Of a stretch of DNA of 31,784 nt, positions 1-19,018 are shown piece by piece; position 1 is the first letter of the stretch, and every line of letters begins with the position of its first letter. A program made the position numbers and the translations under genes. Origin of the DNA: a virus. The stretch lies in UHGV virus genome UHGV-0321443. One strand, written 5' to 3'. Under the pieces are notes generated by a model. The model had not been told where the DNA came from. It did not search any database and was given only the letters and a program-made list of their open reading frames with translations.

Positions 1-71
1 CGGGTGATTCGTTCAAGTAAAGATTCGGAAGGGCAGCCAGCAACAGGCCACCCTGCAATGGCATATTGCAT
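1..71 (-). CDS. Hypothetical early-left (pL operon) protein, 5' end only; gene continues beyond the window start
   Basis: ATG at 71..69 preceded by AAGGAG with 8-nt spacing on the minus strand; reading frame open to the window edge (MQYAIAGWPVAGCPSESLLERITR...). No family recognised. Confidence 0.35.
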   Translation of the reverse strand, partial: MQYAIAGWPVAGCPSESLLERIT

Positions 72-269
72 GGTGTGCTCCTTATTTATACATAACGAAA
101 AACGCCTCGAGTGAAGCGTTATTGGTATGCATATAAAAAGGCCCTCACACTGGAGGGCAAAGAAGATTTCCAATAATCAGAACAAGTCGGCTCCTGTTTA
201 GTTACGAGCGACATTGCTCCGTGTATTCACTCGTTGGAATGAATACACAGTGCAGTGTTTATTCTGTTG

Positions 270-2951: not shown

Positions 2952-3107
2952 TCAAAGAGACATGCCGATAATGGCATTAACCACGCATGACGCCATAAAC
3001 ACGCCGCCAACGATGAAGCTGGCTTGGTTCTTCCTGGTAGCGCCAAGAGTCAACAGAACCACTGAAAGGGCAAAAAAAGGTATCGCGATTATGCTGAACG
3101 TGTTCAT
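2952..3107 (-). CDS. Small hydrophobic protein, 51 aa, two predicted TM helices
   Basis: Hand translation of the minus strand: MNTFSIIAIPFFALSVVLLTLGATRKNQASFIVGGVFMASCVVNAIIGMSL; SD GAGG 5 nt upstream of the ATG; 77 bp downstream of the cI stop on the same strand. Below the ORF-track size cutoff. Confidence 0.4.
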   Translation of the reverse strand: MNTFSIIAIPFFALSVVLLTLGATRKNQASFIVGGVFMASCVVNAIIGMSL

Positions 3108-3184
3108 GTTGACCTCAACTTATTTCGATTCTCCATCACCCTTAATCCGCCGCCCCATGTGTTTGTTGTGATTCGTTGCTGGCC

Positions 3185-3901
<717 letters not shown>

Positions 3902-3989: not shown

Positions 3990-4199
<210 letters not shown>

Positions 4200-4237
4200 G
4201 TAACACCGCTATTTTCACAATGGACATTCGTCCTACG

Positions 4238-4252
4238 TCGCTGACAAAGCGA
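4238..4252 (+). promoter_or_regulatory. nutR boxB hairpin (P22-type); possible boxA at 4208..4216
   Basis: tcgcTGACAAAgcga stem-loop with the same GACAAA-type loop as the nutL site at 1527..1541; upstream cgctatttt resembles boxA. Confidence 0.5.
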
Positions 4253-4337
4253 GTCCCAATATATCTGACCAACTAAGGCCATATGCGTTTCCACGCATAC
4301 CTTTCAACTAACTATTCACTATTGGAAATCTTAAGAA

Positions 4338-4634
4338 ATGGAACAAACAAGTTACAGCAAACTATCACAGCGCGACGTTGATCGCGCAGAAACAGATTTA
4401 CTTATCAACCTGTCAACGCTTACCCAGCGCGGTCTGGCAAAGATGATTGGCTGTCATGAATCGAAGATAAGCAGAACGGACTGGAGATTTATTGCTTCGG
4501 TCTTGTGTGCTTTCGGAATGGCATCAGACATCAGTCCGATTAGCAGGGCTTTTAAGTATGCGCTTGATGGACTCACCAATAAAAAACGCCCGGCGGCAAC
4601 CGAGCGTTCTGAACAAATCCAGATGGATTTTTAA
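4338..4634 (+). CDS. cII: CII-like transcriptional activator (mosaic: divergent N-terminus, lambda-like C-terminus)
   Basis: C-terminal TNKKRPAATERSEQIQMDF matches the lambda CII C-terminus from memory; the N-terminal two-thirds differs; located right of cro and nutR. Confidence 0.75.
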   Translation: MEQTSYSKLSQRDVDRAETDLLINLSTLTQRGLAKMIGCHESKISRTDWRFIASVLCAFGMASDISPISRAFKYALDGLTNKKRPAATERSEQIQMDF

Positions 4635-4655
4635 CTGCTTTCTATGGAGTTAATT

Positions 4656-5456
4656 ATGGCAAAAAAACCTACACCAGACCAGGTAAAAAAGATTCGTTCC
4701 GGCATTACCAAGAAAATACGGTTTGAGGTTTTCAAGCGCGATGGCTTCAAATGCCAGTACTGTGGGAGTTCTGCGCCAGACGTCATCCTTCATGTCGACC
4801 ATATCAACCCAGTTAGCAAGGGTGGCGATAACGACATGATGAACCTTATTACTTCTTGCGATAGTTGTAATGGCGGGAAAAGCGACAAACTGCTCAGCGA
4901 TAACTCAATAATGGAAAAGCAAAGGCAGCAACTCCAGGAACTTAATACCAAGCGAGAGCAACTGGAGATGATGATCAAGTGGCGAGATGGTCTTAAGAGC
5001 CTGAAAGACGATGTTGTTGATATTGTCGCTACCAAAATTGACGACTGCATTGCACCATTTACTGTTAATGACAATGGGCGAAAATCTATCAAGAGATGGC
5101 TTCGAATATATAAGCTTGAAGAAATCCTCGATGCGATTGAGATTGCCGCAGATAAAAAACTCACCCAAGAAATAACCCATGAGCTTACTGGTGAATTCTT
5201 TGAGTACATCCCTCGCATAGCAGCGACAAAAAGAAAACCGCCAAAAGAACAAAGGATTCTATACATCAGAGGAATCCTTAAAAACCGCATATATATCAAT
5301 CAAAACCATGTAATGAGTTATCTCAAGGCATGGCTTTCATACGACTTAGATCTCGATGAACTTACTGAGTTTGCGAAAACAGTACCTAACTGGACAACGT
5401 TCAAGGAGTGGGTATCTGAACGCATTCGTGAAGCTCAGGAAGAACTCCCGTACTAA
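4656..5456 (+). CDS. HNH endonuclease-domain protein with an unknown C-terminal domain
   Basis: HNH motif region CQYCG...HVDHINPVSKGGDNDMMNLITSCDSCN; SD GGAG before the ATG at 4656; visibly AT-richer than neighbouring genes. Confidence 0.65.
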   Translation: MAKKPTPDQVKKIRSGITKKIRFEVFKRDGFKCQYCGSSAPDVILHVDHINPVSKGGDNDMMNLITSCDSCNGGKSDKLLSDNSIMEKQRQQLQELNTKREQLEMMIKWRDGLKSLKDDVVDIVATKIDDCIAPFTVNDNGRKSIKRWLRIYKLEEILDAIEIAADKKLTQEITHELTGEFFEYIPRIAATKRKPPKEQRILYIRGILKNRIYINQNHVMSYLKAWLSYDLDLDELTEFAKTVPNWTTFKEWVSERIREAQEELPY

Positions 5457-5467
5457 AGGTGGACAAA

Positions 5468-6334
5468 ATGGCACGTTCAAGAAATATCAAACCAGGCTTT
5501 TTCACCAATGATGAATTAGCTGAGTGTTCTCCATATGCCCGTCTCCTTTTTGCCGGGTTATGGACTATTGCTGACAAAGAAGGGCGGTTGGATGATCGCC
5601 CAAAGAAAATTAAAGCAATGGTACTGCCTTTCGATGATGTGGACTGCAATGATCTGCTTCAGCAGCTTCACAGTCACAAATTCATCAACCGATATCAGGT
5701 AAATGGCGGCTCATATATCCAAATCAATAACTGGAAAAAGCACCAGAACCCTCACTGCAAAGAAGCAGCCAGTGAGATACCAGAACCAGTAGAGAACAAT
5801 AACAGCACCATGCAAGTACAGTGCAAGGACGATAAAGAGGAAGAGAAGGAGGATGCCGAATCACTACAAGTCATTGAAAACAATGGAGCACCAGAAAAGC
5901 ACCATGCAAGTACAGTGCAAGAACCAGTAGAGAACAGTTTAAATCCTGCTGATTCCCTTAACCTGATTCCTGATTCCCTTTCTAACACCCAAGCCGCTGA
6001 CGCGACTTGTGAAGGGGGTGGGGCTGATGTCCATAAAATTTCAAGTCGCTATGCATTCGAAGGAAATATCGTTCGGTTAAACCACAAGGACTACGAAGCA
6101 TGGAAGCGCCTGTATCCGAACATTGACCTGAATTACGAACTGGAAAGGCTGGATATCGAATTTAGCCATGAGAAGCCAAAGAACTGGTTTATCACTGCCA
6201 GCCAGAAACTCAGCTACCAGAACAAGCAGGCGTTATCCAGACCGGTACGCAAGGTTGCTAATGGACTTAAGGCTGAAAACTTTGCCACCAAAGATTACGG
6301 ACAAACTGAAATGCCTTCATGGGCGCAGGAGTGA
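5468..6334 (+). CDS. Replication initiation protein (O-like replisome organiser)
   Basis: N-terminus MARSRNIKPGFFTNDELAECSPYARLLFAGLWTIADKEGRLDDRPKKIKAMVLPFDD resembles phage replication-initiator N-domains; SD AAGGTGG; contains internal direct repeats; followed by the helicase-loader gene. Confidence 0.65.
   Translation: MARSRNIKPGFFTNDELAECSPYARLLFAGLWTIADKEGRLDDRPKKIKAMVLPFDDVDCNDLLQQLHSHKFINRYQVNGGSYIQINNWKKHQNPHCKEAASEIPEPVENNNSTMQVQCKDDKEEEKEDAESLQVIENNGAPEKHHASTVQEPVENSLNPADSLNLIPDSLSNTQAADATCEGGGADVHKISSRYAFEGNIVRLNHKDYEAWKRLYPNIDLNYELERLDIEFSHEKPKNWFITASQKLSYQNKQALSRPVRKVANGLKAENFATKDYGQTEMPSWAQE
5781..5985. repeat. Iteron-like direct repeats inside the O-like gene (candidate replication origin)
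   Basis: gaaccagtagagaaca occurs at about 5785 and 5922; caccatgcaagtacagtgcaag at about 5816 and 5901; tgattcc(c) occurs three times in 5951..5980. Confidence 0.5.
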
Positions 6335-9240: not shown

Positions 9241-9319
9241 TTTATCCGGGGCTATATTCCTCACACGCCAGCAAAATCTGGCGTCGGGATTGGCGTCCCG
9301 GATAGAAACCGCGACAGAG

Positions 9320-9342
9320 ACACGCCGCGAGCGTGTTTTTTA
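9320..9342 (+). terminator. Rho-independent terminator in the nin region
   Basis: acacgc-cgcga-gcgtgt hairpin followed by tttttt. Confidence 0.55.
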
Positions 9343-9502
9343 TTGTCGTATGCACGCGCACATCTGAATTATGGTGGGCTGTGTGGGGGCGGAGAGATCC
9401 GCGCCGGTCGGTTTCCCGGTTACGCCAACCCTGCACAGTTCACCGCCAGACGATTGGCGTCGTCGGTGGTGAGTCATTTAGAAACCACCGGAGAGCGTCA
9501 CC

Positions 9503-10180
9503 ATGACAACTCAAATTTCTGTCGAAACTCTTTCCCCGATCACCCACAACCAGATCCCCGTTATTACAACTGAACTTCTTGCGCAGTTATACGGAACAAA
9601 AATCAAAAACATTTCGGATAACTTTCTTAACAACACGACGCGATTCGTGGTAGGGAAGCATTACTTTAAAATTGAAAGGAACGAATTACGCGAGTTTAAG
9701 AACAGACCCGAAACAATCGGGTTAGTTGGTAAAAATGCCCGCTCCCTCATCCTCTGGACAGAACGCGGAGCAGCCCGTCACGCCAAAATGCTCGAAACCG
9801 ATCAGGCGTGGGAAGTGTTCGAAAAACTGGAAGACTGCTATTTCAGCCAGTGCGAGAAAAATACTGGCAAACAAGAGAAGAAGCCCAACGGGCTTTCCGC
9901 AAAAGAAACAGACAGCCTTGTTTGGCTGTGGGATTATGCCAACCGCTCACAGGCATTGTTCCGTGAGTTGTATCCCGCATTAAAACTGATTCAGTCTGGC
10001 TATTCCGGCATATGCCACGACTACGGCTATGAGTTCTCGTATATCATCGGGAGGGCGAGGGGCGTTTTAATTAATCACACGCGGGATATAGATATTTATG
10101 AGCCTGACGGGCCGACGAACCTTCTGGCATGGGAAAGGCTTAAGAACAAAGAGTTGCCGCCTTCACTGCATCGCTACTGA
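9503..10180 (+). CDS. Antirepressor-like protein (ORF6N/Bro-N-type N-domain fused to a P22 Ant-type C-terminal domain)
   Basis: C-terminal roughly 100 aa are near-identical to the C-terminus of the Ant-like protein at 30744..31664; N-terminal domain resembles ORF6N-type antirepressor domains. Confidence 0.55.
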
Positions 10181-10222
10181 CAATTGACAACTTAACAAAC
10201 CCAGCTTCGGCTGGGTTTTTTA
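9868..10222 (+). repeat. Direct repeat copy A (antirepressor 3' coding region plus terminator)
   Basis: Aligned by eye with 31352..31705: about 170 bp near-identical, the rest roughly 80% identical; equal length and same orientation. Confidence 0.8.
10200..10222 (+). terminator. Rho-independent terminator
   Basis: cccagc-ttcg-gctggg hairpin followed by tttttt. Confidence 0.7.
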
Positions 10223-10254
10223 TTGCTGAATTTTCAATATGAGAGGACATGACA

Positions 10255-10977
10255 ATGAATGAGCTGATAAATAGCAGCATCATCAAAATGACAAGCATTG
10301 AAATCGCTGAGTTGGTGGGAAGCCAACACGGTAATGTCAGAATATCAATAGAACGTCTGGCAAAGCGTGGGGTGATTCAACTTCCTCCAATGCAAAAAGT
10401 TGAAAATAAACAAACAATTAGCCCTAACAAATTCACAAGCGTGTATATATTCGAAGGCGAACAAGGTAAGCGAGACAGCATTATTGTCGTCGCTCAGTTG
10501 TCGCCGGAATTCACCGCTCGTCTTGTTGACCGTTGGCGAGAACTCGAAGGGGCAACCGCGAAAATACCACAAACCTTTTCTGAGGCATTGCGCCTTGCGG
10601 CCGACCTTGAAGACCAGAAGGCTGAACTGGAGAAACAGCTTGCTCTCGCAGCACCTAAAGTTGAGTTTGCCGATCGCGTTGGCGAGGCCAGCGGAATTTT
10701 GATTGGAAACTTTGCAAAGGTTGTTGGAATTGGTCCAAACAAACTGTTTGCGTGGATGCGCGATCACAAAATCCTTATTGCTTCAGGTTCCCGGCGCAAT
10801 GTGCCAATGCAGGAATATATGGATCGCGGCTATTTCACAGTGAAAGAAACAGCGGTCAACACAAATCACGGAATACAGATATCGTTCACCACAAAAATCA
10901 CCGGGCGTGGTCAACAGTGGCTGACCAGAAAGCTGCTCGATAACGGAATGCTGAAAGTAACAGGGGAGGCTGCTTAA
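10255..10977 (+). CDS. Rha-family regulatory protein / antirepressor (Rha N-domain with KilAC-type C-domain)
   Basis: N-terminus IKMTSIEIAELVGSQHGNVRISIERL resembles Rha; C-terminal region resembles antirepressor C-domains. ATG at 10255 has better SD spacing (GAGAGGA) than 10249. Confidence 0.55.
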   Translation: MNELINSSIIKMTSIEIAELVGSQHGNVRISIERLAKRGVIQLPPMQKVENKQTISPNKFTSVYIFEGEQGKRDSIIVVAQLSPEFTARLVDRWRELEGATAKIPQTFSEALRLAADLEDQKAELEKQLALAAPKVEFADRVGEASGILIGNFAKVVGIGPNKLFAWMRDHKILIASGSRRNVPMQEYMDRGYFTVKETAVNTNHGIQISFTTKITGRGQQWLTRKLLDNGMLKVTGEAA

Positions 10978-11626: not shown

Positions 11627-11766
11627 ACAAAGCATTCGAACGATATATGCGCCAGCGTTATGGCAATCGCTATGACCTGACGCGAGATGTTGAAGGTTTC
11701 TACTGTAGTGAAATTGTGAAACGAATGTTTGAAGTTTGGTGTCATTGCAAAGGATGGGAGGTCTGA
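11623..11766 (+). CDS. Hypothetical small protein (47 aa) between rusA and the Q-like gene
   Basis: ATGA overlap with the rusA stop and TGATG overlap with the next gene; hand-translated MNKAFERYMRQRYGNRYDL... Position analogous to small genes upstream of Q in DLP12-like prophages. Confidence 0.3.
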   Translation: MNKAFERYMRQRYGNRYDLTRDVEGFYCSEIVKRMFEVWCHCKGWEV

Positions 11767-12380
11767 TGCGGCTAACTCCAGTATTCAGCATGGTTAACTT
11801 CATTAATGACGCGCACTTTCGCCGCGTATGGAGACACCCGAAGAAAACCATCAACTCTAGCCAGAAAGCATGGGTTCATTACATGTTACAGGTATGGGGC
11901 AAGGTTAATACCGGAGATTGCTCTCCAGGTGGTGCAATTAACGTTATCGGTCGTCTGATGATTCGCAGTCAGTGGAGCGATGACAAGGCTAAGCAGATAG
12001 AGTCTGTCGTCATGCGCCTGTACGAAGAAGATGGGCTGCGCGGAGATGAGCTATACAAGAAAGCTCGCGAACTGGTCATTCCTCAATCATCGTTTAGCCA
12101 CATCATCACTCTCGCCAAAGAATCAGATGATGCGGCTTTCGTTGAACGTGTGATGGTTAAAACGTTTCACCGTGAAAGCCCTGTCCGCGATGTAGCTATT
12201 AAGCGATATTGCAATCGCAATTGCACGCAAGATATAGCCAGGATTATTTCTTATATAACAGGTGCTGATATTCAGTATTGTCGTAAGCGAGTGGTGTGGT
12301 GTGAGAAAGTGCTGGAGTCAGAAATGTTTTATGCAATGAAACGAGAATTGGAGAAAGAATTTCCATTAATAGCGGCCTGA
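11766..12380 (+). CDS. Putative late-gene antiterminator (Q-like), assigned by position
   Basis: Last gene before the late intergenic region and lysis cassette; SD GGAGG; Cys-rich C-terminal region. Family not confidently recognised. Confidence 0.45.
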   Translation: MRLTPVFSMVNFINDAHFRRVWRHPKKTINSSQKAWVHYMLQVWGKVNTGDCSPGGAINVIGRLMIRSQWSDDKAKQIESVVMRLYEEDGLRGDELYKKARELVIPQSSFSHIITLAKESDDAAFVERVMVKTFHRESPVRDVAIKRYCNRNCTQDIARIISYITGADIQYCRKRVVWCEKVLESEMFYAMKRELEKEFPLIAA

Positions 12381-12538
12381 ACTGAAATAATTTTGTAAAT
12401 GCGTTGCTTCCGAGAAATGAAAGTGGTATTTTTTGTATATGCTCGGAGCAAAAGCGAACTGAGCAGCGAAATTGAAATCCTGATTTCCCCGGTTGCCGAT
12501 AATATTTAGGGTCGACATACTGGCTAGATTAGGTAAGA

Positions 12539-12566
12539 GCCTCGGCATAAACGTCGGGGCTTTTTT
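12539..12566 (+). terminator. Candidate tR'-like terminator of a short late leader transcript
   Basis: gcctcggc-ataaac-gtcggggc hairpin (two G-U pairs) followed by tttttt, about 160 bp downstream of the Q-like stop. Confidence 0.4.
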
Positions 12567-12857: not shown

Positions 12858-13073
12858 ATGAAATCAATGGACAAAATCTCAACTGGCATTGCCTACGGAA
12901 CATCCGCTGGTAGTGCGGGATACTGGTTTTTGCAGTGGTTGGATCAGGTCAGTCCATCACAGTGGGCTGCGATTGGTGTACTGGGGAGTCTGGTTCTGGG
13001 CTTCCTGACATATCTGACTAACCTGTATTTCAAAATCAGAGAGGACCGTCGTAAGGCTGCACGGGGAGAGTAA
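12858..13073 (+). CDS. S: Pinholin, phage 21 S21 type (class II holin with dual-start motif)
   Basis: 71 aa; [32 protein letters not shown]... matches phage 21 S21 as I recall it; Met1/Met4 dual starts at 12858 and 12867; SD GGAGG. Confidence 0.9.
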
Positions 13074-13077
13074 TTCA

Positions 13078-13428
13078 ATGACTCAAAACTATGAACTGAT
13101 TGTGAAAGGGATCCGCAATTTTGAGAATAAAGTTACGGTAACTTTAGCGTTACGGGACAAAAAACGCTTTGACGGTGAAATTTTTGACCTGGACATCTCG
13201 CTGGACCGTGTTGAAGGTGCCGCGCTGGGGTTTTATGAGGCAGCAGCCAGAAGGAGCATCAGACAGGTCTTCCTGGATGTTGCTGCCGGGTTATGTGAAG
13301 GGGATGAGCAGTCGCCGGAAAAGCGCCCCGTAATTTTAGAGGCGCAGAATGTGTGGATAACCTACAAAGTAAAGCTACCAGGAAGAATTACTGGTTCTCT
13401 GAAGACTCCTCCGGAATCACAACCTTAA
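13078..13428 (+). CDS. Hypothetical protein (116 aa) lying between holin and endolysin
   Basis: Six-frame ORF starting 5 nt after the holin stop; no recognisable motif; possibly related to DUF1327-type genes seen at this position in some E. coli prophages. Confidence 0.45.
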   Translation: MTQNYELIVKGIRNFENKVTVTLALRDKKRFDGEIFDLDISLDRVEGAALGFYEAAARRSIRQVFLDVAAGLCEGDEQSPEKRPVILEAQNVWITYKVKLPGRITGSLKTPPESQP

Positions 13429-13491: not shown

Positions 13492-14025
13492 ATGAACGCA
13501 AAAATCAGATACGGCCTGTCGGCTGCCGTTCTGGCACTGATTGCCGTCGGTGCGCCCGCGCCTGATATTCTCGACCAGTTTCTGGATGAAAAAGAAGGTA
13601 ACCACACAACGGCATACCGCGATGGTTCCGGCATCTGGACCATCTGTCGGGGTGCCACGATGGTGGATGGAAAACCCGTTTTTCCCGGTATGAAACTGTC
13701 GAAGGAAAAATGCGACCAGGTCAACGCCATTGAGCGTGATAAGGCGCTGGCATGGGTGGAGCGCAATATTAAAGTACCACTGACCGAACCACAAAAAGCG
13801 GGTATCGCGTCATTTTGTCCCTATAACATTGGCCCCGGTAAGTGTTTTCCATCGACGTTTTATAAGCGGCTGAATGCCGGTGATCGTAAGGGGGCATGCG
13901 AAGCGATTCGCTGGTGGATTAAGGATGGTGGGCGCGATTGCCGCATACGTTCAAATAACTGCTATGGGCAAGTTATTCGTCGTGACCAGGAAAACGCATT
14001 AGCCTGTTGGGGGATAGAGCAGTGA
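13492..14025 (+). CDS. R: SAR endolysin (T4-lysozyme-like muramidase with N-terminal signal-anchor-release domain)
   Basis: N-terminal hydrophobic, Gly/Ala-rich segment ([17 protein letters not shown]) followed by a lysozyme-like domain; position between holin and Rz. Confidence 0.8.
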
Positions 14026-14459
14026 GCAGAGTCGCCGCGATTATTTATGCTCTGGTTATCTGCACCATCGTCTGCCTGTCATGGGCTGTTAATCATTACC
14101 GTGATAACGCCATCGCCTACAAAGACCAGCGCGATAAAGCCACATCTATCATCTCTGATATGCAGAAGCGTCAACGTGATGTAGCTGAACTCGACGCCAG
14201 ATACACAAAGGAGCTTGCTGATGCTAACGCGACTATCGAAAGTCTCCGTGCTGATGTTTCTGCTGGGCGTAAGCGCCTGCAAGTCGCCGCCACCTGTGCA
14301 AAGTCAACGACCGGAGCCAGCGGCATGGGCAATGGAGAAAGCCCAAGACTTACAGCAGATGCTGAACTCAATTATTACCGTCTCCGAAGTGGAATCGACA
14401 GGATAACCGCGCAGGTTAACTACCTGCAGGAATACATCAGGACGCAATGCCTGAAATAA
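14022..14459 (+). CDS. Rz: Rz i-spanin
   Basis: [38 protein letters not shown]... closely resembles lambda Rz; GTG start overlaps the endolysin stop (GTGA). Confidence 0.85.
14215..14406 (+). CDS. Rz1: Rz1 o-spanin (lipoprotein), embedded in the +1 frame of Rz
   Basis: Signal peptide with lipobox (LLGVSAC) followed by a Pro-rich segment ([13 protein letters not shown]); wholly inside Rz as in lambda. Confidence 0.7.
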
Positions 14460-14491
14460 TTTTTTTGCAAATCACACAGTCCATTTAATGA

Positions 14492-14513
14492 GCCTCGCGA
14501 TGCGGGGCTTTTT
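14492..14513 (+). terminator. Rho-independent terminator after the lysis cassette
   Basis: gcctcgc-gat-gcggggc hairpin followed by ttttt. Confidence 0.55.
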
Positions 14514-14520
14514 GCAATAA

Positions 14521-14545
14521 ATGCGTACCGCAACGCATGTTTTTT
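14521..14545 (+). terminator. Second tandem rho-independent terminator
   Basis: atgcgt-accgca-acgcat hairpin followed by gtttttt. Confidence 0.55.
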
Positions 14546-14660
14546 ACACCGAACCTGCCCCTTTGGAATGGGCCTTTGAGGATACCAGTTAGTGCTGGCG
14601 AGCCTCGGTGGGCTGGTTTCCTGTGCGGCAAAGGTTCATTTCAAAGAGTAGGTACACGCT

Positions 14661-15158
14661 ATGAAATCATTAACCCTCTTCAATCAACCAATTCGTATCG
14701 GTGAAGATGGCATGATCTGCCTCACTGATATGTGGAAAGCCAGTGGTAAAAGTGAATCTGAATCGCCTTACCACTACCTGCGAAACAAGCAGACCAAAGA
14801 GTTCTTAGCCGAGCTGGAGAAAAACCACGAATCTGTGGTTTTTACTGAGCGCGGTGTACACGGTGGAACATATGGCGGGAAGTTTGTTGCTTATGATTAT
14901 GCAGCATGGCTAAACCCCGGATTTAAATATGCAGCCTATAAAGTCCTGGATGACTACTTCACCGGAGAACTTCAGCATCGCAACAGCTTAAGTGCGCAGC
15001 TCAATATGAAGTGTCATGAGTTTGATCAGAAAAAAGATATGGCGAGCTTCTGTGGACAAGGGCTGGCGGCATGGCGCTATACGAAGCCAGTGTTGGTCGC
15101 TGAGATTAACTCCCTGGCTAACCAGCTGCAGATAACGATCCCCGGGCTTCCGGGATGA
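14661..15158 (+). CDS. KilA-N domain protein
   Basis: N-terminal region resembles KilA-N DNA-binding domains; lies between the lysis-cassette terminators and cos, so probably a moron with its own promoter. Confidence 0.5.
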   Translation: MKSLTLFNQPIRIGEDGMICLTDMWKASGKSESESPYHYLRNKQTKEFLAELEKNHESVVFTERGVHGGTYGGKFVAYDYAAWLNPGFKYAAYKVLDDYFTGELQHRNSLSAQLNMKCHEFDQKKDMASFCGQGLAAWRYTKPVLVAEINSLANQLQITIPGLPG

Positions 15159-15412
15159 GTGATCGTGTCATTGAATGCGCTTCCAGAGCGGGGCGCGACT
15201 TCTCAGAGTTCATGAAAGGCGAGAAGGGCATGATGGAAGCATTGGCCTCGGTGGATGAGTTTGGCGAGCAGCTGCGCCTCAACGGCTGTGTCAATCATCA
15301 CTTTGTTAGCTACATGATGCGGAACTCGATCATGCAGGCATTCATGGACATGGCAAAAGCCGAGAGGAAAGAAGAGCGCCGGCGTAAGCGAGCGGAAGCA
15401 AAAGCGAAATAG
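15155..15412 (+). CDS. Hypothetical protein (85 aa), translationally coupled to the KilA-N gene
   Basis: ATGA overlap with the upstream stop; highly charged C-terminus (RKEERRRKRAEAKAK). Confidence 0.4.
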   Translation: MSDRVIECASRAGRDFSEFMKGEKGMMEALASVDEFGEQLRLNGCVNHHFVSYMMRNSIMQAFMDMAKAERKEERRRKRAEAKAK

Positions 15413-16235
15413 CCATTACAAAGCCCATCTACGGGTGGGTTTGATAATGGCTTATACCCTGCACGGGATAACTTAACTGATATCCCTTTTAACGGATAAA
15501 CGGAGCCAACAATGGCAGAGAATGTCGGCATTATGGCAGTGAAATTTGGATAAATCGGGGATTAGAAAGATAGAGGCGAGCCGGTCAGGTAGAAATGAAT
15601 CAGGCTCAAAGTGAAGCGGAAAAGGTCTGTGGCACAAACTGATGCTGCCATAATTACAGCCTGATGACTTGTGGAATGAAACATGTTGAACCTCCTTAAT
15701 TGATGTGATTCGAGTGAGGAAGGCATTCTGTCCTTCTATAGTGTCCAGTAAATCAAACAGGAAGCTTGTCTCACGTGTGAGACAAGCCTCTCCATTAGCG
15801 AGTTGTATTGATTACAACTCTTCAAAGAGTTCATTACTGGGTAGATGAAAATAGTTTCACGACGAATGGAGGAGACTATGTCGGTGGCTTCTTCATTGGA
15901 GTACATATGCTCCCTCGAACCTCAAAAGCATGCCGAGTTCGCGGCTGCCGCCATACCACCACAGATCCGTCAGGCTATTGCAAAAGCCACAAAAGCGAAG
16001 GCTGGAAGCAATACAAGCCGGGCCAGTCCTGTCATCAGCGCGGTTATGGTTCGCGAGGTTGTCCCTCATGCTCGCCAGTCCTGTGCGGGGGTGGAAGAAA
16101 CAGGACACTCACACAGATTCTTGTGGGTCGATGCTATTCCTTTCTGGATTATCCCGATGCCATTCATGCAAGGGCTGTATAAGACGTTCGTCATGGCTGT
16201 CAGGCTGACGGGTCCTCCCGGTGGGGTGGCCTGCC

Positions 16236-16424: not shown

Positions 16425-16916
16425 ATGGATCATGAGTTGAAAAACCTGGTGCTGAATATTAATCAACTGGCGGCTTTATCTGGTCTGCACCGCCAGACTG
16501 TCGTGGCAAGACTGAAAAACATTCGTCCCGCTGGTGGACATGACAAACTCAAGCTATACCGGTTGACCGATATTCTGACTGAATTTATGGGGTTACCACC
16601 GCCGGTTGCTGAGGGCGAAATGGATCCACATGAACGCAAAGCCTGGTATCAGTCTGAACGTGAGCGTCTTAAGTTCGAACAGGAAACGGCACAACTCATT
16701 CCGGCCAGTGATGTCAGACGGGAGTTTGCCATCTGGGCAAAAGCGGTCGTGCAGGTGCTGGAGACATTACCGGATATTCTGGAACGTGACTGCGGTCTGC
16801 AGCCTGCCGCTGTGAGCCGTGTTCAGTCCATTATTGATGATCTGCGCGATCAGATAGCCCTGCGGGTGACCGAAGCAGGTGCGGATGATGAGGAGGAATT
16901 ACAGCAGGAGGAGTAA
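16425..16916 (+). CDS. Terminase small subunit (Nu1-like)
   Basis: N-terminal helix-turn-helix (NINQLAALSGLHRQTVVARLKN) analogous to Nu1; SD GGAGGA; directly upstream of the large subunit with TAATG overlap. Confidence 0.7.
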   Translation: MDHELKNLVLNINQLAALSGLHRQTVVARLKNIRPAGGHDKLKLYRLTDILTEFMGLPPPVAEGEMDPHERKAWYQSERERLKFEQETAQLIPASDVRREFAIWAKAVVQVLETLPDILERDCGLQPAAVSRVQSIIDDLRDQIALRVTEAGADDEEELQQEE

Positions 16917-19018
16917 TGCTGAATCAGGAAACCGCAAAGGCAGCACGAACCGATTCAGGTTATATCCTTCGCGCACCGAGACGAATGCGGGTTGCTGATG
17001 CCGTTGCTCAGTATATGCGGGTGCCCATGGGGGCAGGGAACTCAGTCCCGTGGGATCCGCTGGTGGCACCGTATGTTATTGAGCCGATGAACTGCCTGGC
17101 CTCGCGTGAATACGACGCAGTGATATTTGTTGGCCCGGCACGAACCGGCAAGACTATCGGCCTGATTGACGGCTGGGTGATTTACAACGTGATTTGCGAT
17201 CCTGCTGATATGCTGATCATTCAGATGACGGAGGAAAAAGCCCGCGAACACTCCAAAAAACGACTTGCCAGAACGTTTCGCGTCAGCCCGGAAGTGGTCA
17301 GTCGCCTGAGTCCGAACAAAAATGACAACAACGTTTATGACAGAACATTCCTTGCTGGTAACTACCTGAAAATCGGCTGGCCGTCAGTCAATATCATGTC
17401 CTCATCAGATTATAAATGCGTCGCGCTGACGGATTATGACCGTTTTCCGGAAGATATTGATGGCGAGGGGGATGCTTTCTCTCTTGCCTCAAAACGTACC
17501 ACCACATTTATGTCCAGTGGTATGACGCTGGTGGAGAGTTCCCCCGGCAGGGATGTGAAGGATGTGAAATGGCGACGGACTTCACCGCATGAGGCTCCAC
17601 CAACCACGGGGATCCTGTCGCTCTATAACCGTGGTGATCGCCGTCGCTGGTACTGGCCCTGTCCACACTGTGGTGAGTATTTTCAGCCCTGCGGCGATGT
17701 GGTTGCTGGTTTCCGTGATATTGCCGATCCCGTGCTGGCAAGTGAGGCGGCTTATATTCAGTGTCCTTCCTGTTCAGGACGGATTATGCCTGAACAAAAA
17801 CGTGAGCTGAACGGACGTGGGGTCTGGTTGCGGGATGGTGAATCCATCAATGCGGATGGCAGTCGTTATGGTGATCCCCGACGCTCACGTATTGCGTCAT
17901 TCTGGATGGAGGGTCCGGCAGCTGCTTACCAGACACTCTCGCAACTCGTTTACAAACTGCTTACTGCAGAACAGGAATACGAGACAACCGGAAGTGAAGA
18001 AACACTCAAGACGGTTATCAATACCGACTGGGGATTACCTTATCTTCCCCGCGCCAGCATGGAGCAACGAAAAAGTGAACTGCTTGAGCAGCGGGCAGAG
18101 CCAGTTCCTTCCCGCAGTGTGCCGGATGGCGTTAATTTCCTTGTGGCGACAGTGGATGTGCAGGCGGGACGTCATCGCCGTTTTGTGGTTCAGGTAACGG
18201 GCTATGGCAGCCGTGGCGAACGCTGGATTATTGATCGTTACAACATCACGCAGTCATTGCGCGGTGACAGTGACGGGGAGAGCCAGCGAATTGATCCGGC
18301 CAGCTATCCGGAAGACTGGGATGTCCTGCTGACGGATGTTTTTCATAAAAGCTGGCCGCTGGCCTCCGATCCTTCTCAACAAATGCGACTGATGGCAATG
18401 GCGGTGGACTCCGGCGGTGAAGACGGGGTCACTGATAATGCCTATAAATTCTGGCGTCGTTGCCGTCGTGATGGCCTTGGTAAACGTATTTACCTGTTTA
18501 AGGGCGACAGCATCCGGCGCGCAAAACTGATCACCCGTACATTCCCTGATAACACCGGACGAACGGGCCGACGGGCGCAGGCCGCAGGTGATGTGCCGCT
18601 CTGGCTTCTTCAGACGGATGCACTGAAAGACCGGGTGAATAACGCGTTATGGCGTGACTCGCCAGGTCCCGGCTATGTGCATTTCCCTGACTGGCTGGGG
18701 AGCTGGTTTTACGACGAACTGACGTATGAAGAGCGGAGCAGTGACGGGAAATGGAGTAAGCCGGGTCGCGGTGCCAACGAAGCTTTTGACCTGATGGTGT
18801 ATGCCGAGGCTCTGGTCATTCTGCATGGATACGAAAAGATCCGCTGGCCGGATGCACCGGAGTGGGCGAGCCGGGAAACCTGGCTGGAGTGTGTCCAGGA
18901 CAGTACCGAACCGTCATCCTCACCGGAACCGGTATCCACGCCTGTTAAAAAACAAAAACGGAAGAAAACAGTAACTGACGATGTTAACCCCTGGCTGACT
19001 TCCGGAGGATGGTTATGA
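16916..19018 (+). CDS. Terminase large subunit (lambda gpA family)
   Basis: 700 aa; Walker A GPARTGKT; CPHCGE motif as in lambda gpA. Confidence 0.9.
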   Translation: MLNQETAKAARTDSGYILRAPRRMRVADAVAQYMRVPMGAGNSVPWDPLVAPYVIEPMNCLASREYDAVIFVGPARTGKTIGLIDGWVIYNVICDPADMLIIQMTEEKAREHSKKRLARTFRVSPEVVSRLSPNKNDNNVYDRTFLAGNYLKIGWPSVNIMSSSDYKCVALTDYDRFPEDIDGEGDAFSLASKRTTTFMSSGMTLVESSPGRDVKDVKWRRTSPHEAPPTTGILSLYNRGDRRRWYWPCPHCGEYFQPCGDVVAGFRDIADPVLASEAAYIQCPSCSGRIMPEQKRELNGRGVWLRDGESINADGSRYGDPRRSRIASFWMEGPAAAYQTLSQLVYKLLTAEQEYETTGSEETLKTVINTDWGLPYLPRASMEQRKSELLEQRAEPVPSRSVPDGVNFLVATVDVQAGRHRRFVVQVTGYGSRGERWIIDRYNITQSLRGDSDGESQRIDPASYPEDWDVLLTDVFHKSWPLASDPSQQMRLMAMAVDSGGEDGVTDNAYKFWRRCRRDGLGKRIYLFKGDSIRRAKLITRTFPDNTGRTGRRAQAAGDVPLWLLQTDALKDRVNNALWRDSPGPGYVHFPDWLGSWFYDELTYEERSSDGKWSKPGRGANEAFDLMVYAEALVILHGYEKIRWPDAPEWASRETWLECVQDSTEPSSSPEPVSTPVKKQKRKKTVTDDVNPWLTSGGWL

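What the first reader, a model, noticed from the sequence alone, without database searches (positions are those of the whole stretch)
14546..15442. KilA-N two-gene moron between the lysis-cassette terminators and cos
Two tandem terminators (14492..14545) close the lysis operon. Then a KilA-N domain gene and a translationally coupled 85-aa gene with a highly basic C-terminus occupy the slot where lambda carries bor. This is an independently transcribed unit in a known cargo position.
Basis: partly seen in the sequence, partly recalled or inferred. Interest (0 to 1): 0.4.

Follow-up and report, generated by a model that had tools for sequence, protein, structure and literature searches.

The report
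Late-operon KilA-N cassette with structured leader RNA
The two genes are a very common prophage accessory pair with no sign of a promoter of their own, and they sit behind a conserved, pseudoknotted RNA leader, absent from Rfam, that also precedes the classic rha and ant genes of phages P22, phi80, 933W and HK97.

Summary
The sequence features are real. There is a strong terminator hairpin (14490-14515) and a second hairpin with a U-run (14521-14545). A KilA-N+ORF11CD3 gene (14661-15158) follows, then an ATGA-overlapping 85-aa gene (15155-15412). The pair is HK620 hkbK/hkbL. The 1.5-kb region around it matches 3172 of 5426 complete E. coli genomes.

The "independently transcribed moron" reading is not supported. 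No conserved sigma-70 promoter exists. In 66 of 72 upstream contexts a terminator sits directly upstream, sometimes too close for a promoter.

The whole 14512-14666 stretch is one conserved RNA element:
- a long hairpin of about 100 nt with the Shine-Dalgarno in its basal helix;
- a long-range pairing (CACCGA 14547-14552 with UCGGUG 14605-14610).

Of 36 nested pairs, 29 show compensatory changes. The long-range pairing has 20 distinct 3'-strand variants (0 of 10000 permutations match cognate stability). Rfam 15 has no match.

The same leader precedes P22/phi80 rha, 933W ant, the HK97 KilA-N gene and an HNH nuclease gene.

Best reading: a portable late-operon cassette, reached only by Q-antiterminated transcription, whose leader gates translation. 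The trigger is unknown.

The parts
14490..14515 (+). T1: intrinsic-terminator hairpin (GAGCCUCGC-GAU-GCGGGGCUU) plus U-run. It is the first element of the cassette.
   Evidence: Fold dG is -14.1 kcal/mol. A hairpin with a T-run lies within 70 nt upstream of P0 in 66 of 72 distinct contexts. In locus L073 the mosaic junction lies at 14487, just before this hairpin.
14521..14545 (+). P0: small conserved hairpin (AUGCGU-ACCGCA-ACGCAU). In this lineage only, it is followed by GUUUUUU.
   Evidence: The terminator scan found it. Fold dG is -6.9. All 5 P0 pairs show changes on both sides across homologues: GCGCA/UGCGC, GCACC/GGUGC, GUGCC/GGCAC, GUGCA/UGCAC. Other variants lack the U-run.
14547..14552 (+). 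Strand a (CACCGA): the 5' partner of the long-range or pseudoknot pairing.
   Evidence: It is complementary to 14605-14610. The pairing covaries across 20 distinct apical 9-mers. Cognate duplexes average -8.6 kcal/mol against -4.3 for non-cognate, and 0 of 10000 permutations reach the cognate mean.
14553..14653 (+). Long irregular hairpin, built from these elements:
- P1: ACCUGC/GUAGGU, which contains the Shine-Dalgarno AGG at 14650-14652.
- P2: CUUUGGAAUGGGCCUUUG/CAAAGGUUCAUUUCAAAG.
- A conserved purine-rich bulge on the 3' side, GUGCGG.
- P3/P3b: AGGAUACCAG/CUGGUUUCCU.
- An apical region with the conserved GGGCUG.
   Evidence: Minimum free energy is -48.7 kcal/mol for 14547-14663. Z-score is -3.1 for 14455-14665. 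All 36 diverse versions fold alone into the same architecture. Of 36 nested pairs, 29 show changes on both sides; 82.8% of cells are paired against 71.5% when shuffled and at most 50.6% when slid. The conserved positions are listed.
14605..14610 (+). Strand a' (UCGGUG): the 3' partner of the long-range pairing. It lies in the apical region, just 5' of the conserved GG.
   Evidence: Explicit variant pairs include CGUCGA/UCGACG, CCAAGAG/CUCUUGG, CGAGAG/CUCUCG, CCCGAG/CUCGGG, GCAUAGAG/CUCUAUGC, CCAUAGA/UCUAUGG, CUCAGAA/UUCUGAG, CCAAAGA/UCUUUGG and CACAGA/UCUGUG.
14512..14666 (+). The whole leader as matched by covariance model R1. It is the only copy in the window.
   Evidence: cmsearch gives 118 bits, E 1.4e-24, on the + strand only. 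No Rfam 15 family matches it: E up to 10 here, and E up to 0.1 on nine other loci carrying other versions of the leader.
14661..15158 (+). Gene for a 165-aa Bro-network protein with an N-terminal KilA-N domain and a C-terminal ORF11CD3 domain. It is the orthologue of HK620 hkbK.
   Evidence: Pfam and PHROG 129/10441. The C-terminal domain is shared with P22 Rha at 35% identity over 68 aa, E 1e-8. The protein is 100% identical in more than 70 viral contigs.
15155..15412 (+). Translationally coupled gene for an 85-aa three-helix protein with an arginine/lysine-rich C-terminal helix. It is the orthologue of HK620 hkbL and of HK97p61.
   Evidence: The ATGA overlap is. It belongs to PHROG 875, function unknown. 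All 138 homologues with a source name come from Enterobacterales and are called 'hypothetical'. C8 and C45 are invariant and H48/H49 nearly so. The AlphaFold2 model has pLDDT 93.5 with helices at 3-20, 26-42 and 48-84. No structural relative reaches E < 1.
15415..15448 (+). Hairpin directly after the 85-aa gene (AAGCCCAUC-UACG-GGUGGGUUU), with only a weak U-run. It marks the right edge of the module and an insertion hot spot.
   Evidence: Fold dG is -14.8. Segment 15412-15449 is duplicated on both sides of 160-800 bp inserts in many related loci. The closest relative, L056, has about 200 bp extra here between GATAATG and GACAATG.

Best explanation
The region 14490-15448 is one portable late-operon accessory cassette. 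It is not a self-transcribed moron.

Its order is: terminator T1, hairpin P0, a pseudoknotted leader of about 110 nt, the KilA-N+ORF11CD3 gene, a translationally coupled 85-aa gene, and a closing hairpin.

Shown:
- The leader is a conserved RNA structure on the + strand, with abundant compensatory change in all helices and in the long-range pairing a-a'.
- It is a module of its own, because it is swapped independently of the gene behind it.
- The same leader precedes other Bro-network genes (rha, ant, other KilA-N genes) and an HNH nuclease gene.
- A terminator almost always lies just upstream.
- The weak Shine-Dalgarno (AAGG/UAGG) always lies in the basal helix.

Inferred:
- The cassette has no promoter and is reached only by terminator-resistant, Q-modified RNA polymerase coming from pR' through the lysis genes.
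- In a lysogen, T1 (and here also P0 with its U-run) blocks stray transcription, and the folded leader keeps any leaked mRNA poorly translated. This forms a double lock on a potentially harmful DNA-binding, antirepressor-like protein.
- Late in infection the abundant late transcript is translated at a low or gated level. The opening step is unknown. Candidates are RNase III cleavage of the 24-bp P1-P2 stem, as in the lambda N leader, or binding by a protein or other factor at the conserved bulge and pseudoknot.
- The KilA-N protein is then made together with its small partner by coupling. Its target is unknown.
For: RNA structure:
- Each of 36 diverse versions folds alone into the same architecture.
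- On the covariance-model alignment, 29 of 36 pairs change on both sides. The covariation score is 0.335 against 0.163 for shuffles (0 of 500 reach it). Slid controls pair at most 50.6% of cells against 82.8%.
- Pairing a-a': cognate duplexes average -8.6 kcal/mol against -4.3 for non-cognate, with 0 of 10000 permutations reaching the cognate mean and 20 distinct a' 9-mers.
- G-U pairs outnumber A-C pairs 231 to 120, and G-U pairs occur in a-a'. Both fit + strand RNA.
- The leader persists when the downstream protein is only 34-40% identical, in Xenorhabdus, Pantoea and Serratia symbiotica.

Modularity:
- The HK620 and phi80 leaders are 100% identical over 133 nt, yet the genes behind them are unrelated, with the junction at the ATG.
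- A nearly identical KilA-N gene sits behind three leader types.
- L073 carries three tandem cassettes.

Other cargo behind the same leader: P22 rha, phi80 rha and a second phi80 copy, 933W ant, HK97 KilA-N, and an HNH_3 nuclease gene and P22_AR_N genes.

No promoter.

Terminator upstream: 66 of 72 contexts.

Shine-Dalgarno: it is paired in the minimum-energy fold of the window's leader and in the consensus structure, though not in the fold of every one of the 36 versions. Its ensemble unpaired probability is 0.30 against 0.47 for 24 other gene starts in this window, Mann-Whitney p = 2e-4.

Literature: rha of P22/phi80 is described as a late-operon gene that harms lytic growth when IHF is absent. 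BTP1 late genes form one polycistronic operon.
Against: - No transcript data were available for this locus. Weak, activator-dependent or non-sigma-70 promoters cannot be excluded by sequence.
- Shine-Dalgarno occlusion is only partial in the ensemble (0.30 unpaired), and the site sits at the breathing end of the helix. A plain hairpin would be enough for that, so the conserved pseudoknot, bulge and P0 imply a more specific function that I have not identified.
- It is unclear whether a-a' can form at the same time as the full long hairpin. In the window-type leader a 6-nt extension separates a from the core P1.
- The alignment used for pair counts was fitted to the model, which favours the structure. 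The a-a' test, however, did not depend on the alignment's column register.
- The literature says IHF regulates rha, which hints at DNA-level control. I could not read that paper, and I found no IHF consensus here.
Confidence: 0.55

Rival explanations
1. One reading: a true moron. A promoter of its own in 14546-14660 (or overlapping T1/P0) expresses the pair from the prophage, insulated from the late operon by the upstream terminators, as with lambda bor or P22 pid.
For: - It is a discrete exchangeable module in a slot that holds real morons: bor in 933W and pid in P22/BTP1, which has a mapped start site.
- Terminators flank it.
- Some variants have a weak promoter-like match across P0, for example TTCACA-16-TATTAA in HK620, PWM score 4.7.
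Against: - No promoter match is conserved in position across 36 variants, and most scores are below the window-wide 99.9th percentile. The consensus scan found none.
- A start downstream of the HK620-type -10 element would cut off strand a, whose pairing covaries.
- In several loci the terminator's T-run abuts P0.
- The downstream hairpin has only a weak U-run.
- BTP1 data describe the late genes as one operon.
Confidence: 0.1
2. The leader is mainly an RNA-processing or catalytic element, not a translational gate. It would be a self-cleaving ribozyme, or a dedicated RNase III/RNase E site, that cuts the long late transcript at each cassette. This would give the cargo mRNA its own 5' end and stability. 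T1 would serve as the protective 3' hairpin of the upstream fragment.
For: - The fold is elaborate: a pseudoknot, a conserved purine-rich bulge, and the conserved GAG, GGGC and G14625 positions. That is more than simple Shine-Dalgarno occlusion needs.
- Units repeat before each gene in arrays.
- The near-perfect 24-bp P1-P2 stem resembles RNase III substrates.
- AU-rich single-stranded linkers flank P0.
Against: - No match to any Rfam ribozyme or other family.
- Only a few nucleotides are strictly conserved outside the helices.
- No cleavage data exist.
- The consistent placement of the Shine-Dalgarno in P1 is not explained by processing alone, although cleavage could be the step that frees it. 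This rival therefore overlaps with the best explanation.
Confidence: 0.2
3. The conserved sequence is only a recombination linker (a 'boundary sequence') that lets lambdoid phages swap cargo genes by homologous recombination, with no RNA function.
For: - Identical leaders lie in front of unrelated genes, with junctions exactly at the ATG.
- Many mosaic junctions lie inside or at the edges of the element.
- Boundary sequences are annotated in Sf6.
Against: - Linkers need sequence identity, not base pairing. Here the sequence diverges while pairing is kept by compensatory changes in 29 of 36 pairs and in a-a'.
- The architecture survives where nucleotide similarity is lost, in L086, L088 and L089.
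- A linker role may exist in addition to the RNA function.
Confidence: 0.05
4. The palindromes act at the DNA level. P0 would be an operator for a dimeric regulator or an IHF-dependent control region of a promoter that needs an activator, so control would be transcriptional.
For: - P0 is a perfect inverted repeat in every variant.
- Literature states that IHF regulates rha.
- The cargo proteins bind DNA.
Against: - P0 half-sites are not conserved; they covary.
- G-U pairs are tolerated about twice as often as A-C, as expected for RNA of one strand.
- No WATCAANNNNTTR site on either strand in 14400-14700.
- The long helices and a-a' have no DNA-level rationale.
Confidence: 0.07

Closest known systems
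rha (ORF201) of Salmonella phage P22 and rha of coliphage phi80
   Same: - Same position, directly after Rz/Rz1 in the late operon.
- Same leader RNA upstream: R1 scores 114.5 and 114.1 bits. P22 is about 83% identical to the window from the Rz end to just past the ATG.
- Same C-terminal ORF11CD3 domain.
- Literature calls rha a late-operon gene that is harmful to lytic growth in IHF-deficient hosts.
   Different: The N-terminal DNA-binding domain is Phage_pRha, not KilA-N. P22 rha has no coupled 85-aa partner gene. The Rha phenotype has not been tested for the KilA-N version.
hkbK/hkbL of coliphage HK620, and HK97p60/HK97p61
   Same: hkbK/hkbL are orthologues of both genes at about 92-95% DNA identity, with the same order and the same ATGA coupling. 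HK97p61 is a homologue of the 85-aa protein. HK97 has the leader before its KilA-N gene.
   Different: HK620 carries a different leader variant, identical to that of phi80. HK97p60 pairs KilA-N with a P63C domain rather than ORF11CD3. All of these genes are annotated only as unknown or hypothetical.
ant of Stx phage 933W
   Same: It is a Bro-network protein (P22_AR_N + ORF11CD3) behind the same leader, at 98.6 bits, inside the late operon.
   Different: It sits between R and Rz rather than after Rz, and it has a different N-terminal domain.
Classical morons of the same region: lambda/933W bor and P22 pid
   Same: Accessory cargo between the lysis and packaging genes. They are flanked by terminators.
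   Different: bor is on the opposite strand and is noted as expressed in the lysogen. pid has its own start site, mapped by dRNA-seq in the related prophage BTP1, plus a long 5'UTR and a functional terminator. No such promoter is detectable here.
RNA-level control of other phage regulators: the P1/P7 c4-icd-ant system (C4/isrK RNAs), the lambda N-leader RNase III hairpin, and Mu com-mom
   Same: These are cases where a phage regulator or modification gene (an antirepressor, the antiterminator N, Mu mom) is kept off by RNA structure around its ribosome-binding site (background knowledge). This very window uses an isrK/C4 element in front of two Ant genes.
   Different: The leader is not a member of those families. 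It has no Rfam C4 or other match. The window's C4 and isrK RNAs show no special complementarity to it, with z-scores of +0.8 and -0.5. The architecture of P0 plus a pseudoknotted long hairpin is different, and neither RNase III dependence nor an activator protein has been shown.

Membership tests
KilA-N domain proteins (Pfam PF04383) | Match to the KilA-N profile above Pfam's gathering score | tested here: met
   57.6 bits against a cut-off of 23.8, residues 9-101.
Bro-network C-terminal module ORF11CD3 (Pfam PF10549) | Match to the ORF11CD3 profile above the gathering score | tested here: met
   50.5 bits against a cut-off of 25, residues 109-161. BLASTP to the P22 Rha C-terminus gives E 1e-8.
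Moron (independently expressed prophage cargo unit) | Own promoter immediately upstream of the gene | tested here: not met
   No + strand sigma-70 match in 14546-14660. No positionally conserved promoter across 36 variants. The terminator abuts P0 in several loci. This is a sequence-level test only.
Moron (independently expressed prophage cargo unit) | Own terminator immediately downstream | tested here: inconclusive
   A strong hairpin lies at 15421-15442 (dG -14.8), but it is followed only by UUUGAU. The terminator scan did not report it.
Moron (independently expressed prophage cargo unit) | Expression from the repressed prophage | not testable with these tools
   No RNA-seq for this locus. 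BTP1 data show the late genes as one operon, and pid as the expressed moron of this region.
Moron (independently expressed prophage cargo unit) | Discrete insertion between conserved neighbours, present or absent among relatives | tested here: met
   Sharp mosaic junctions and different neighbours across loci. A genome 100% identical downstream lacks the pair.
Rho-independent terminator | GC-rich hairpin directly followed by a U-run | tested here: met
   T1 has 9 bp, dG -14.1, then UUUUU. P0 has 6 bp, dG -6.9, then GUUUUUU. Function was not tested.
Any described RNA family (Rfam 15) | Covariance-model match at or near the gathering score | tested here: not met
   Only chance-level hits in 14400-15900 (rimP leader E 4.9, DUF805b E 1). 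Nothing at E up to 0.1 in nine other loci that carry other versions of the leader.
Shine-Dalgarno-sequestering translational leader | Ribosome-binding site base-paired in a conserved helix, with covariation | tested here: met
   The Shine-Dalgarno lies in P1 in the consensus structure and in the minimum-energy fold of the window's leader, though not in the fold of every version. In P1, 3 of 4 pairs change on both sides. Its unpaired probability is 0.30 against 0.47 in controls, p = 2e-4. The effect on translation was not tested.
RNA pseudoknot | Covarying pairing that crosses a nested helix | tested here: met
   a-a' crosses P1-P3b. There are 20 distinct a' variants, each matched by a complementary a, and 0 of 10000 permutations reach the cognate mean. 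Column-wise counting was not possible, because the helix register slips by one position between types.
RNA pseudoknot | Both pairings form in the same molecule at the same time | not testable with these tools
   This needs 3D modelling or probing. By my count, in the core variants P1+P2 (about 18 bp) roughly equals P3+P3b+a-a' (about 18 bp), which would allow two side-by-side stacks. That is an inference only.
Anti-phage defence systems (PADLOC) | Full-length match to a defence protein model | tested here: not met
   Only a local 30-residue hit of the KilA-N domain to PDC-S22, E 1.2e-8. The 85-aa protein has no hit.

The most novel reading that the evidence does not exclude
The leader would be a new class of structured RNA with an active function. 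It might be a self-cleaving ribozyme, or a factor-sensing switch (protein, RNA or ligand). It might also respond to the speed or hairpin-suppressing state of Q-modified RNA polymerase. In any of these cases it would license dangerous Bro-network and nuclease cargo only in the late phase. It would have gone unnoticed in P22, phi80, HK97 and 933W, because annotated rha start codons run into it.
Probability: 0.2. Interest if true: 0.85.

Novelty: new variant of a known kind. Interest (0 to 1): 0.6.

Why it matters
The gene pair itself is ordinary. It is one of the commonest unknown-function pairs in E. coli prophages.

What matters is upstream. A pseudoknotted RNA of about 150 nt, with strong covariation and no Rfam entry, precedes Rha, Ant, KilA-N and HNH genes in the late operons of textbook phages and thousands of enterobacterial genomes.

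If it gates these genes, three things follow:
- It explains how potentially toxic, antirepressor-like proteins are carried safely inside the most strongly transcribed phage operon.
- It gives a concrete handle on the old and unexplained Rha/IHF phenotype.
- It corrects gene starts: the P22 and phi80 rha genes are annotated as starting inside the leader.

It also shows that 'terminator plus gene' downstream of a lysis cassette should not automatically be read as a moron.

Tried and rejected
- **Rfam.** Gathering and E-value modes on the window, and E-value mode on nine other loci carrying other versions of the leader, found no family.
- **Sigma-70 promoter.** The consensus scan and my own PWM scan across 36 variants found nothing conserved.
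- **IHF consensus.** WATCAANNNNTTR is absent from 14400-14700 on both strands.
- **Trans-pairing with the window's own C4 or isrK RNA.** Duplex energies are no better than shuffles, z = +0.8 and -0.5.
- **Leader peptide.** ORF 14537-14704 is not conserved; other variants truncate or lack it.
- **Ribozyme or K-turn motifs, judged by eye.** No consistent hammerhead (CUGANGA) or K-turn (tandem G-A) signature. Rejected as unsupported.
- **Function of the 85-aa protein.**
  - PDB sequence search: nothing significant.
  - Pfam: only a sub-threshold YqzE hit at E 0.063.
  - NCBIfam and PADLOC: nothing.
  - Foldseek against PDB: nothing below E = 1.
- **KilA-N protein against PDB sequences.** Only chance hits.
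- **Structure-aware alignment.** mafft-qinsi is not installed. RNAalifold on the plain MAFFT alignment recovered only fragments. I therefore derived a consensus by voting over the single-sequence folds and refined it with a covariance model.
- **Column-wise pair counting for a-a'.** Abandoned because the helix register slips by one position between leader types. Replaced by a test of cognate against non-cognate duplex energies that does not depend on column register.
- **Literature.** The Henthorn & Friedman 1995 paper on rha is not held. Searches for a described RNA motif near KilA-N or rha found none.
- **Genome-contig scan.** It gave only 7 loci, but these were the divergent ones that first revealed conservation of the leader.
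Full report
**1. What is in the sequence**

The window is a lambdoid enterobacterial prophage. The genes around the finding run in this order on the + strand:
- a Q-like antiterminator gene (11736-12380, PHROG 753);
- a terminator-like hairpin on the + strand at 12535-12564, between the Q-like gene and the holin gene, where a tR'-type terminator would be expected;
- holin (12858-13073), a DUF1327 gene (13078-13428), lysozyme (13492-14025), and Rz/Rz1 (14007-14459 and 14215-14406);
- after the finding, a DUF1441 small terminase gene (16425-16916) and a lambda-A-like large terminase gene (16916-19018).

Within the finding, the features are as follows.
- Hairpin T1 (14490-14510, 9 bp, dG -14.1 kcal/mol) is followed by UUUUU.
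- A second hairpin (14521-14538, 6 bp, dG -6.9) is followed by GUUUUUU.
- The ORF at 14661-15158 encodes KilA-N (E 1.3e-15) plus ORF11CD3 (E 2.4e-13).
- The ORF at 15155-15412 overlaps it by ATGA and ends in KAERKEERRRKRAEAKAK.

**2. How common it is, and what travels together**

The 1.5 kb around the pair matches 215 phage records and 3172 of 5426 complete E. coli genomes. The best places are annotated 'KilA-N domain-containing protein | hypothetical protein | lysis protein'.

The pair is hkbK/hkbL of HK620. It also occurs in Stx phages 1717 and 2851, in ECP1 and in PhiR49_1. It is always after Rz, but it occurs with three different packaging modules.

In 80 viral contigs the KilA-N protein is 99-100% identical. 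Most loci share one block with the window, running from the R/Rz junction (14018-14023) to 15449 or 15500. A minority break at 14487, 14523, 14546, 14588 or exactly at 14661. It is thus a discrete, exchangeable module.

**3. The unexpected part: the intergenic region is a conserved RNA**

Folding 14455-14665 gave a long hairpin of about 100 nt just before the ATG (z-score -3.1).

The upstream regions of homologues fall into many sequence types, yet all keep one architecture. In order, it is:
- a terminator;
- a short linker;
- a small hairpin, P0;
- an A/U-rich linker;
- strand a;
- a long hairpin made of P1, P2, a 3' bulge, P3, P3b and an apical region that carries strand a';
- the Shine-Dalgarno in the 3' arm of P1;
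- the AUG.

This holds even where the protein is only 34-40% identical, in Xenorhabdus, Pantoea and Serratia symbiotica.

I built covariance model R1 from 25 diverse versions, using a consensus structure voted from their single-sequence folds. A search of the window and 74 loci gave 81 hits, all co-oriented with the gene downstream. The window has exactly one hit, 14512-14666 (118 bits, E 1.4e-24).

On that alignment:
- 29 of 36 pairs show changes on both sides;
- 82.8% of cells are paired, against 71.5% in shuffles and at most 50.6% when partners are slid;
- the covariation score is 0.335 against 0.163, reached by 0 of 500 shuffles.

The alignment is fitted to the model, which favours the structure. 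However, every sequence also adopts the fold on its own.

**4. A long-range pairing**

The 6-8 nt just 5' of the long hairpin (window CACCGA, 14547-14552) are complementary to 6-8 nt in the apical region (UCGGUG, 14605-14610). The two sides change together. Examples:
- CGUCGA/UCGACG
- CCAAGAG/CUCUUGG
- CGAGAG/CUCUCG
- CCCGAG/CUCGGG
- CCUGAG/CUCGGG (with a U-G pair)
- GCAUAGAG/CUCUAUGC
- CCAUAGA/UCUAUGG
- CUCAGAA/UUCUGAG
- CCAAAGA/UCUUUGG
- CACAGA/UCUGUG

The helix register slips by one position between types, so column counts fail. I therefore compared duplex energies of cognate and non-cognate partners. Cognate duplexes average -8.6 kcal/mol and non-cognate -4.3. None of 10000 permutations reaches the cognate mean. 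The result holds when restricted to one representative of each of the 20 distinct apical 9-mers.

This pairing crosses P1-P3b, so it is either a pseudoknot or an alternative state. I could not decide which. In the core variants, my count of stem lengths is about 18 bp for P1+P2 and about 18 bp for P3+P3b+a-a'. That would allow two side-by-side stacks, but this is an inference.

G-U pairs outnumber A-C pairs 231 to 120 in the helices, and G-U pairs occur in a-a'. Both fit an RNA of the + strand.

Positions conserved in at least 90% of 27 representatives that are less than 90% identical to each other are: the P0 GCGC, GAG at 14578-14580, GGGC.G at 14610-14615, CU at 14621-14622, G14625 in the bulge, the AGG of the Shine-Dalgarno, and AUGAA.

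No Rfam 15 family matches the window's leader or the other versions of it in nine further loci. Literature searches found no description of it.

**5. The leader is a module of its own and serves other genes**

R1 finds the leader before:
- P22 rha (39497-39649, ending at an ATG at 39644);
- phi80 rha, plus a second phi80 copy before an N15 gp59-like ORF;
- 933W ant, which lies between R and Rz;
- the HK97 KilA-N gene.

It also finds the leader in fetched loci before two further KilA-N genes, a P22_AR_N+ORF11CD3 gene and an HNH_3 endonuclease gene.

Locus L073 has three tandem units, each consisting of terminator, leader and gene.

The HK620 and phi80 leaders are 100% identical over 133 nt, while the genes behind them are unrelated. 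The similarity ends at the start codon. P22 and the window are 83% identical from the Rz end to just past the ATG, and then they diverge. Conversely, a nearly identical KilA-N gene sits behind three leader types.

By BLAST, the window-type leader alone is in 75 phage records, under annotations such as Rha, anti-repressor, transcriptional regulator and homing endonuclease.

The window's protein shares its C-terminal domain with P22 Rha (35% identity over 68 aa, E 1e-8). It is thus a domain-swapped relative of Rha.

The gene after it varies. It may be the 85-87 aa type, an unrelated 55-57 aa type, a 135-aa type, or absent. When present in these forms, it overlaps the upstream stop codon.

**6. 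Transcription**

The consensus scan finds no + strand promoter between the hairpins and the ATG. My PWM scan over 36 variants gives no match at a conserved position, and most top scores fall below the window-wide 99.9th percentile.

A hairpin plus T-run lies within 70 nt upstream of P0 in 66 of 72 distinct contexts, and most of the six exceptions have imperfect versions. In some loci the T-run touches P0.

P0 and strand a covary as RNA, so the transcript must begin upstream of them. That means upstream of, or within, the terminator.

The simplest reading is that the cassette is transcribed by polymerase arriving from the lysis genes. It is established that Q-modified polymerase from pR' ignores such terminators. 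In the P22-like prophage BTP1, the late genes are one large polycistronic operon, whereas the true moron of this region, pid, has its own mapped start site and terminator.

Rha is described as a late-operon gene. I therefore reject 'independently transcribed', with the caveat that this rests on sequence only.

Only in this lineage has it acquired a U-run. It may add termination here, but that is not its conserved role.

**7. What the leader probably does**

The Shine-Dalgarno is weak (AAGG or UAGG, about -3.9 kcal/mol against the anti-Shine-Dalgarno). It lies in the 3' arm of the basal helix in the consensus structure and in the minimum-energy fold of the window's leader.

Its ensemble unpaired probability is 0.30, against 0.47 for 24 other gene starts in this window (Mann-Whitney p = 2e-4). 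The leader hairpin is very stable, at -48.7 kcal/mol.

I therefore favour a cis-acting translational gate that, together with the upstream terminator, keeps a potentially harmful Bro-network protein silent except in the late phase.

The occlusion is only partial. The pseudoknot, the bulge and P0 are more than occlusion requires. So there is very likely a specific partner or event, such as RNase III cleavage of the 24-bp P1-P2 stem, a protein, or self-cleavage. This step is inferred, and none of it has been shown.

This same phage controls its two other Bro-network genes at the RNA level. These are the Ant genes at 9503-10180 and 10249-10977, which lie behind an isrK/C4 element. That RNA shows no complementarity to the new leader.

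**8. The proteins**

The KilA-N protein has no solved relative by sequence. Its only defence-library hit is a local, domain-level match to PDC-S22.

The 85-aa protein:
- belongs to PHROG 875, function unknown;
- has 138 homologues; those with a source name are all from Enterobacterales and all 'hypothetical';
- has invariant C8 and C45, nearly invariant H48/H49, and the motifs ECASRAGRDFSEF and GCVNHHF;
- has a confident AlphaFold2 model (pLDDT 93.5) of three helices, the last (48-84) carrying the basic tail;
- has no structural relative below E = 1.

Its function remains open. An RNA-binding or DNA-binding role for the arginine-rich helix, or a Cys/His metal site, is speculation.

**9. Verdict**

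The gene pair is already known as a hypothetical pair and is ordinary. The leader RNA is, as far as Rfam 15 and the searchable literature show, undescribed. It is well supported by covariation and is present in textbook phages. That is the reason for an interest score of 0.6.

Noticed in passing
window 9252-10977 (+): Rfam finds c4-a1b1 (9252-9304), isrK (9265-9341) and C4 antisense RNA (9367-9450). Two antirepressor genes follow directly: 9503-10180 (PHROG 377, Ant) and 10249-10977 (PHROG 63, Ant). This is a P1/P7-immI-like or Gifsy-isrK-like RNA-controlled antirepressor module in the early-right region. The phage therefore carries three Bro-network genes, each behind an RNA element.
   Followed up: partly
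L245 (P22 NC_002371) 39497-39649; L247 (phi80 NC_021190) 2141-2280: The annotated starts of rha in P22 (39575) and phi80 (record position 43739) lie inside the conserved leader RNA. The leader ends at an ATG (P22 39644), which gives a 178-aa Rha whose Phage_pRha and ORF11CD3 domains are intact. The historical 'ORF201' start is probably about 23 codons too far upstream.
   Followed up: partly
L073 2911-5519: Three tandem cassettes, each with terminator, leader and gene. The genes are KilA-N+P63C (3050-3805), KilA-N+ORF11CD3 with the 85-aa gene (4001-4752), and a third KilA-N gene (4989-5519). It is an array-like expansion of the same unit.
   Followed up: partly
window 15761-15790 and about 15907-16056: A 13-bp perfect hairpin (dG -18.4) reads as a terminator only on the minus strand. 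It has a sub-threshold Rfam hit (Atu_C9, E 2.8e-4, below the gathering score). Next to it is an HNH endonuclease remnant, which PGAP calls a pseudogene (missing C-terminus) in E. coli genomes that are 100% identical here. Intact HNH genes in related loci can carry the same leader, as in L041.
   Followed up: partly
window 15449/15450; L056 4789-4990: The closest relative, L056, is 99-100% identical elsewhere but has about 200 bp more here, between the 7-bp repeats GATAATG and GACAATG. Many other loci have 160-800 bp inserts flanked by copies of 15412-15449. This is an insertion/deletion hot spot at the right edge of the cassette.
   Followed up: partly
window 11736-12380 (+): The gene in the Q position matches PHROG 753 (Q-like antitermination protein, E 2.3e-67). 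It has no Pfam or NCBIfam hit, so this Q type is not covered by the curated antiterminator families.
   Followed up: partly
window 26-84 (-): A full-length match to the lambda cIII thermoregulator element (RF01804, 88.5 bits). This confirms a lambda-like early-left region at the window's start.
   Followed up: no
window 13078-13428 (+): A DUF1327 gene (E 1.7e-41) sits inside the lysis cassette between holin and lysozyme. Its function is unknown, and a relative annotates a YdfR family protein in the same place.
   Followed up: no
window 15155-15412 (protein residues 8, 45, 48, 49): The 85-aa protein has two invariant cysteines and two nearly invariant histidines (ECASR...GCVNHHF) on a three-helix scaffold. 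This could be a metal-binding site. Whether the four residues come together in the model was not checked.
   Followed up: no
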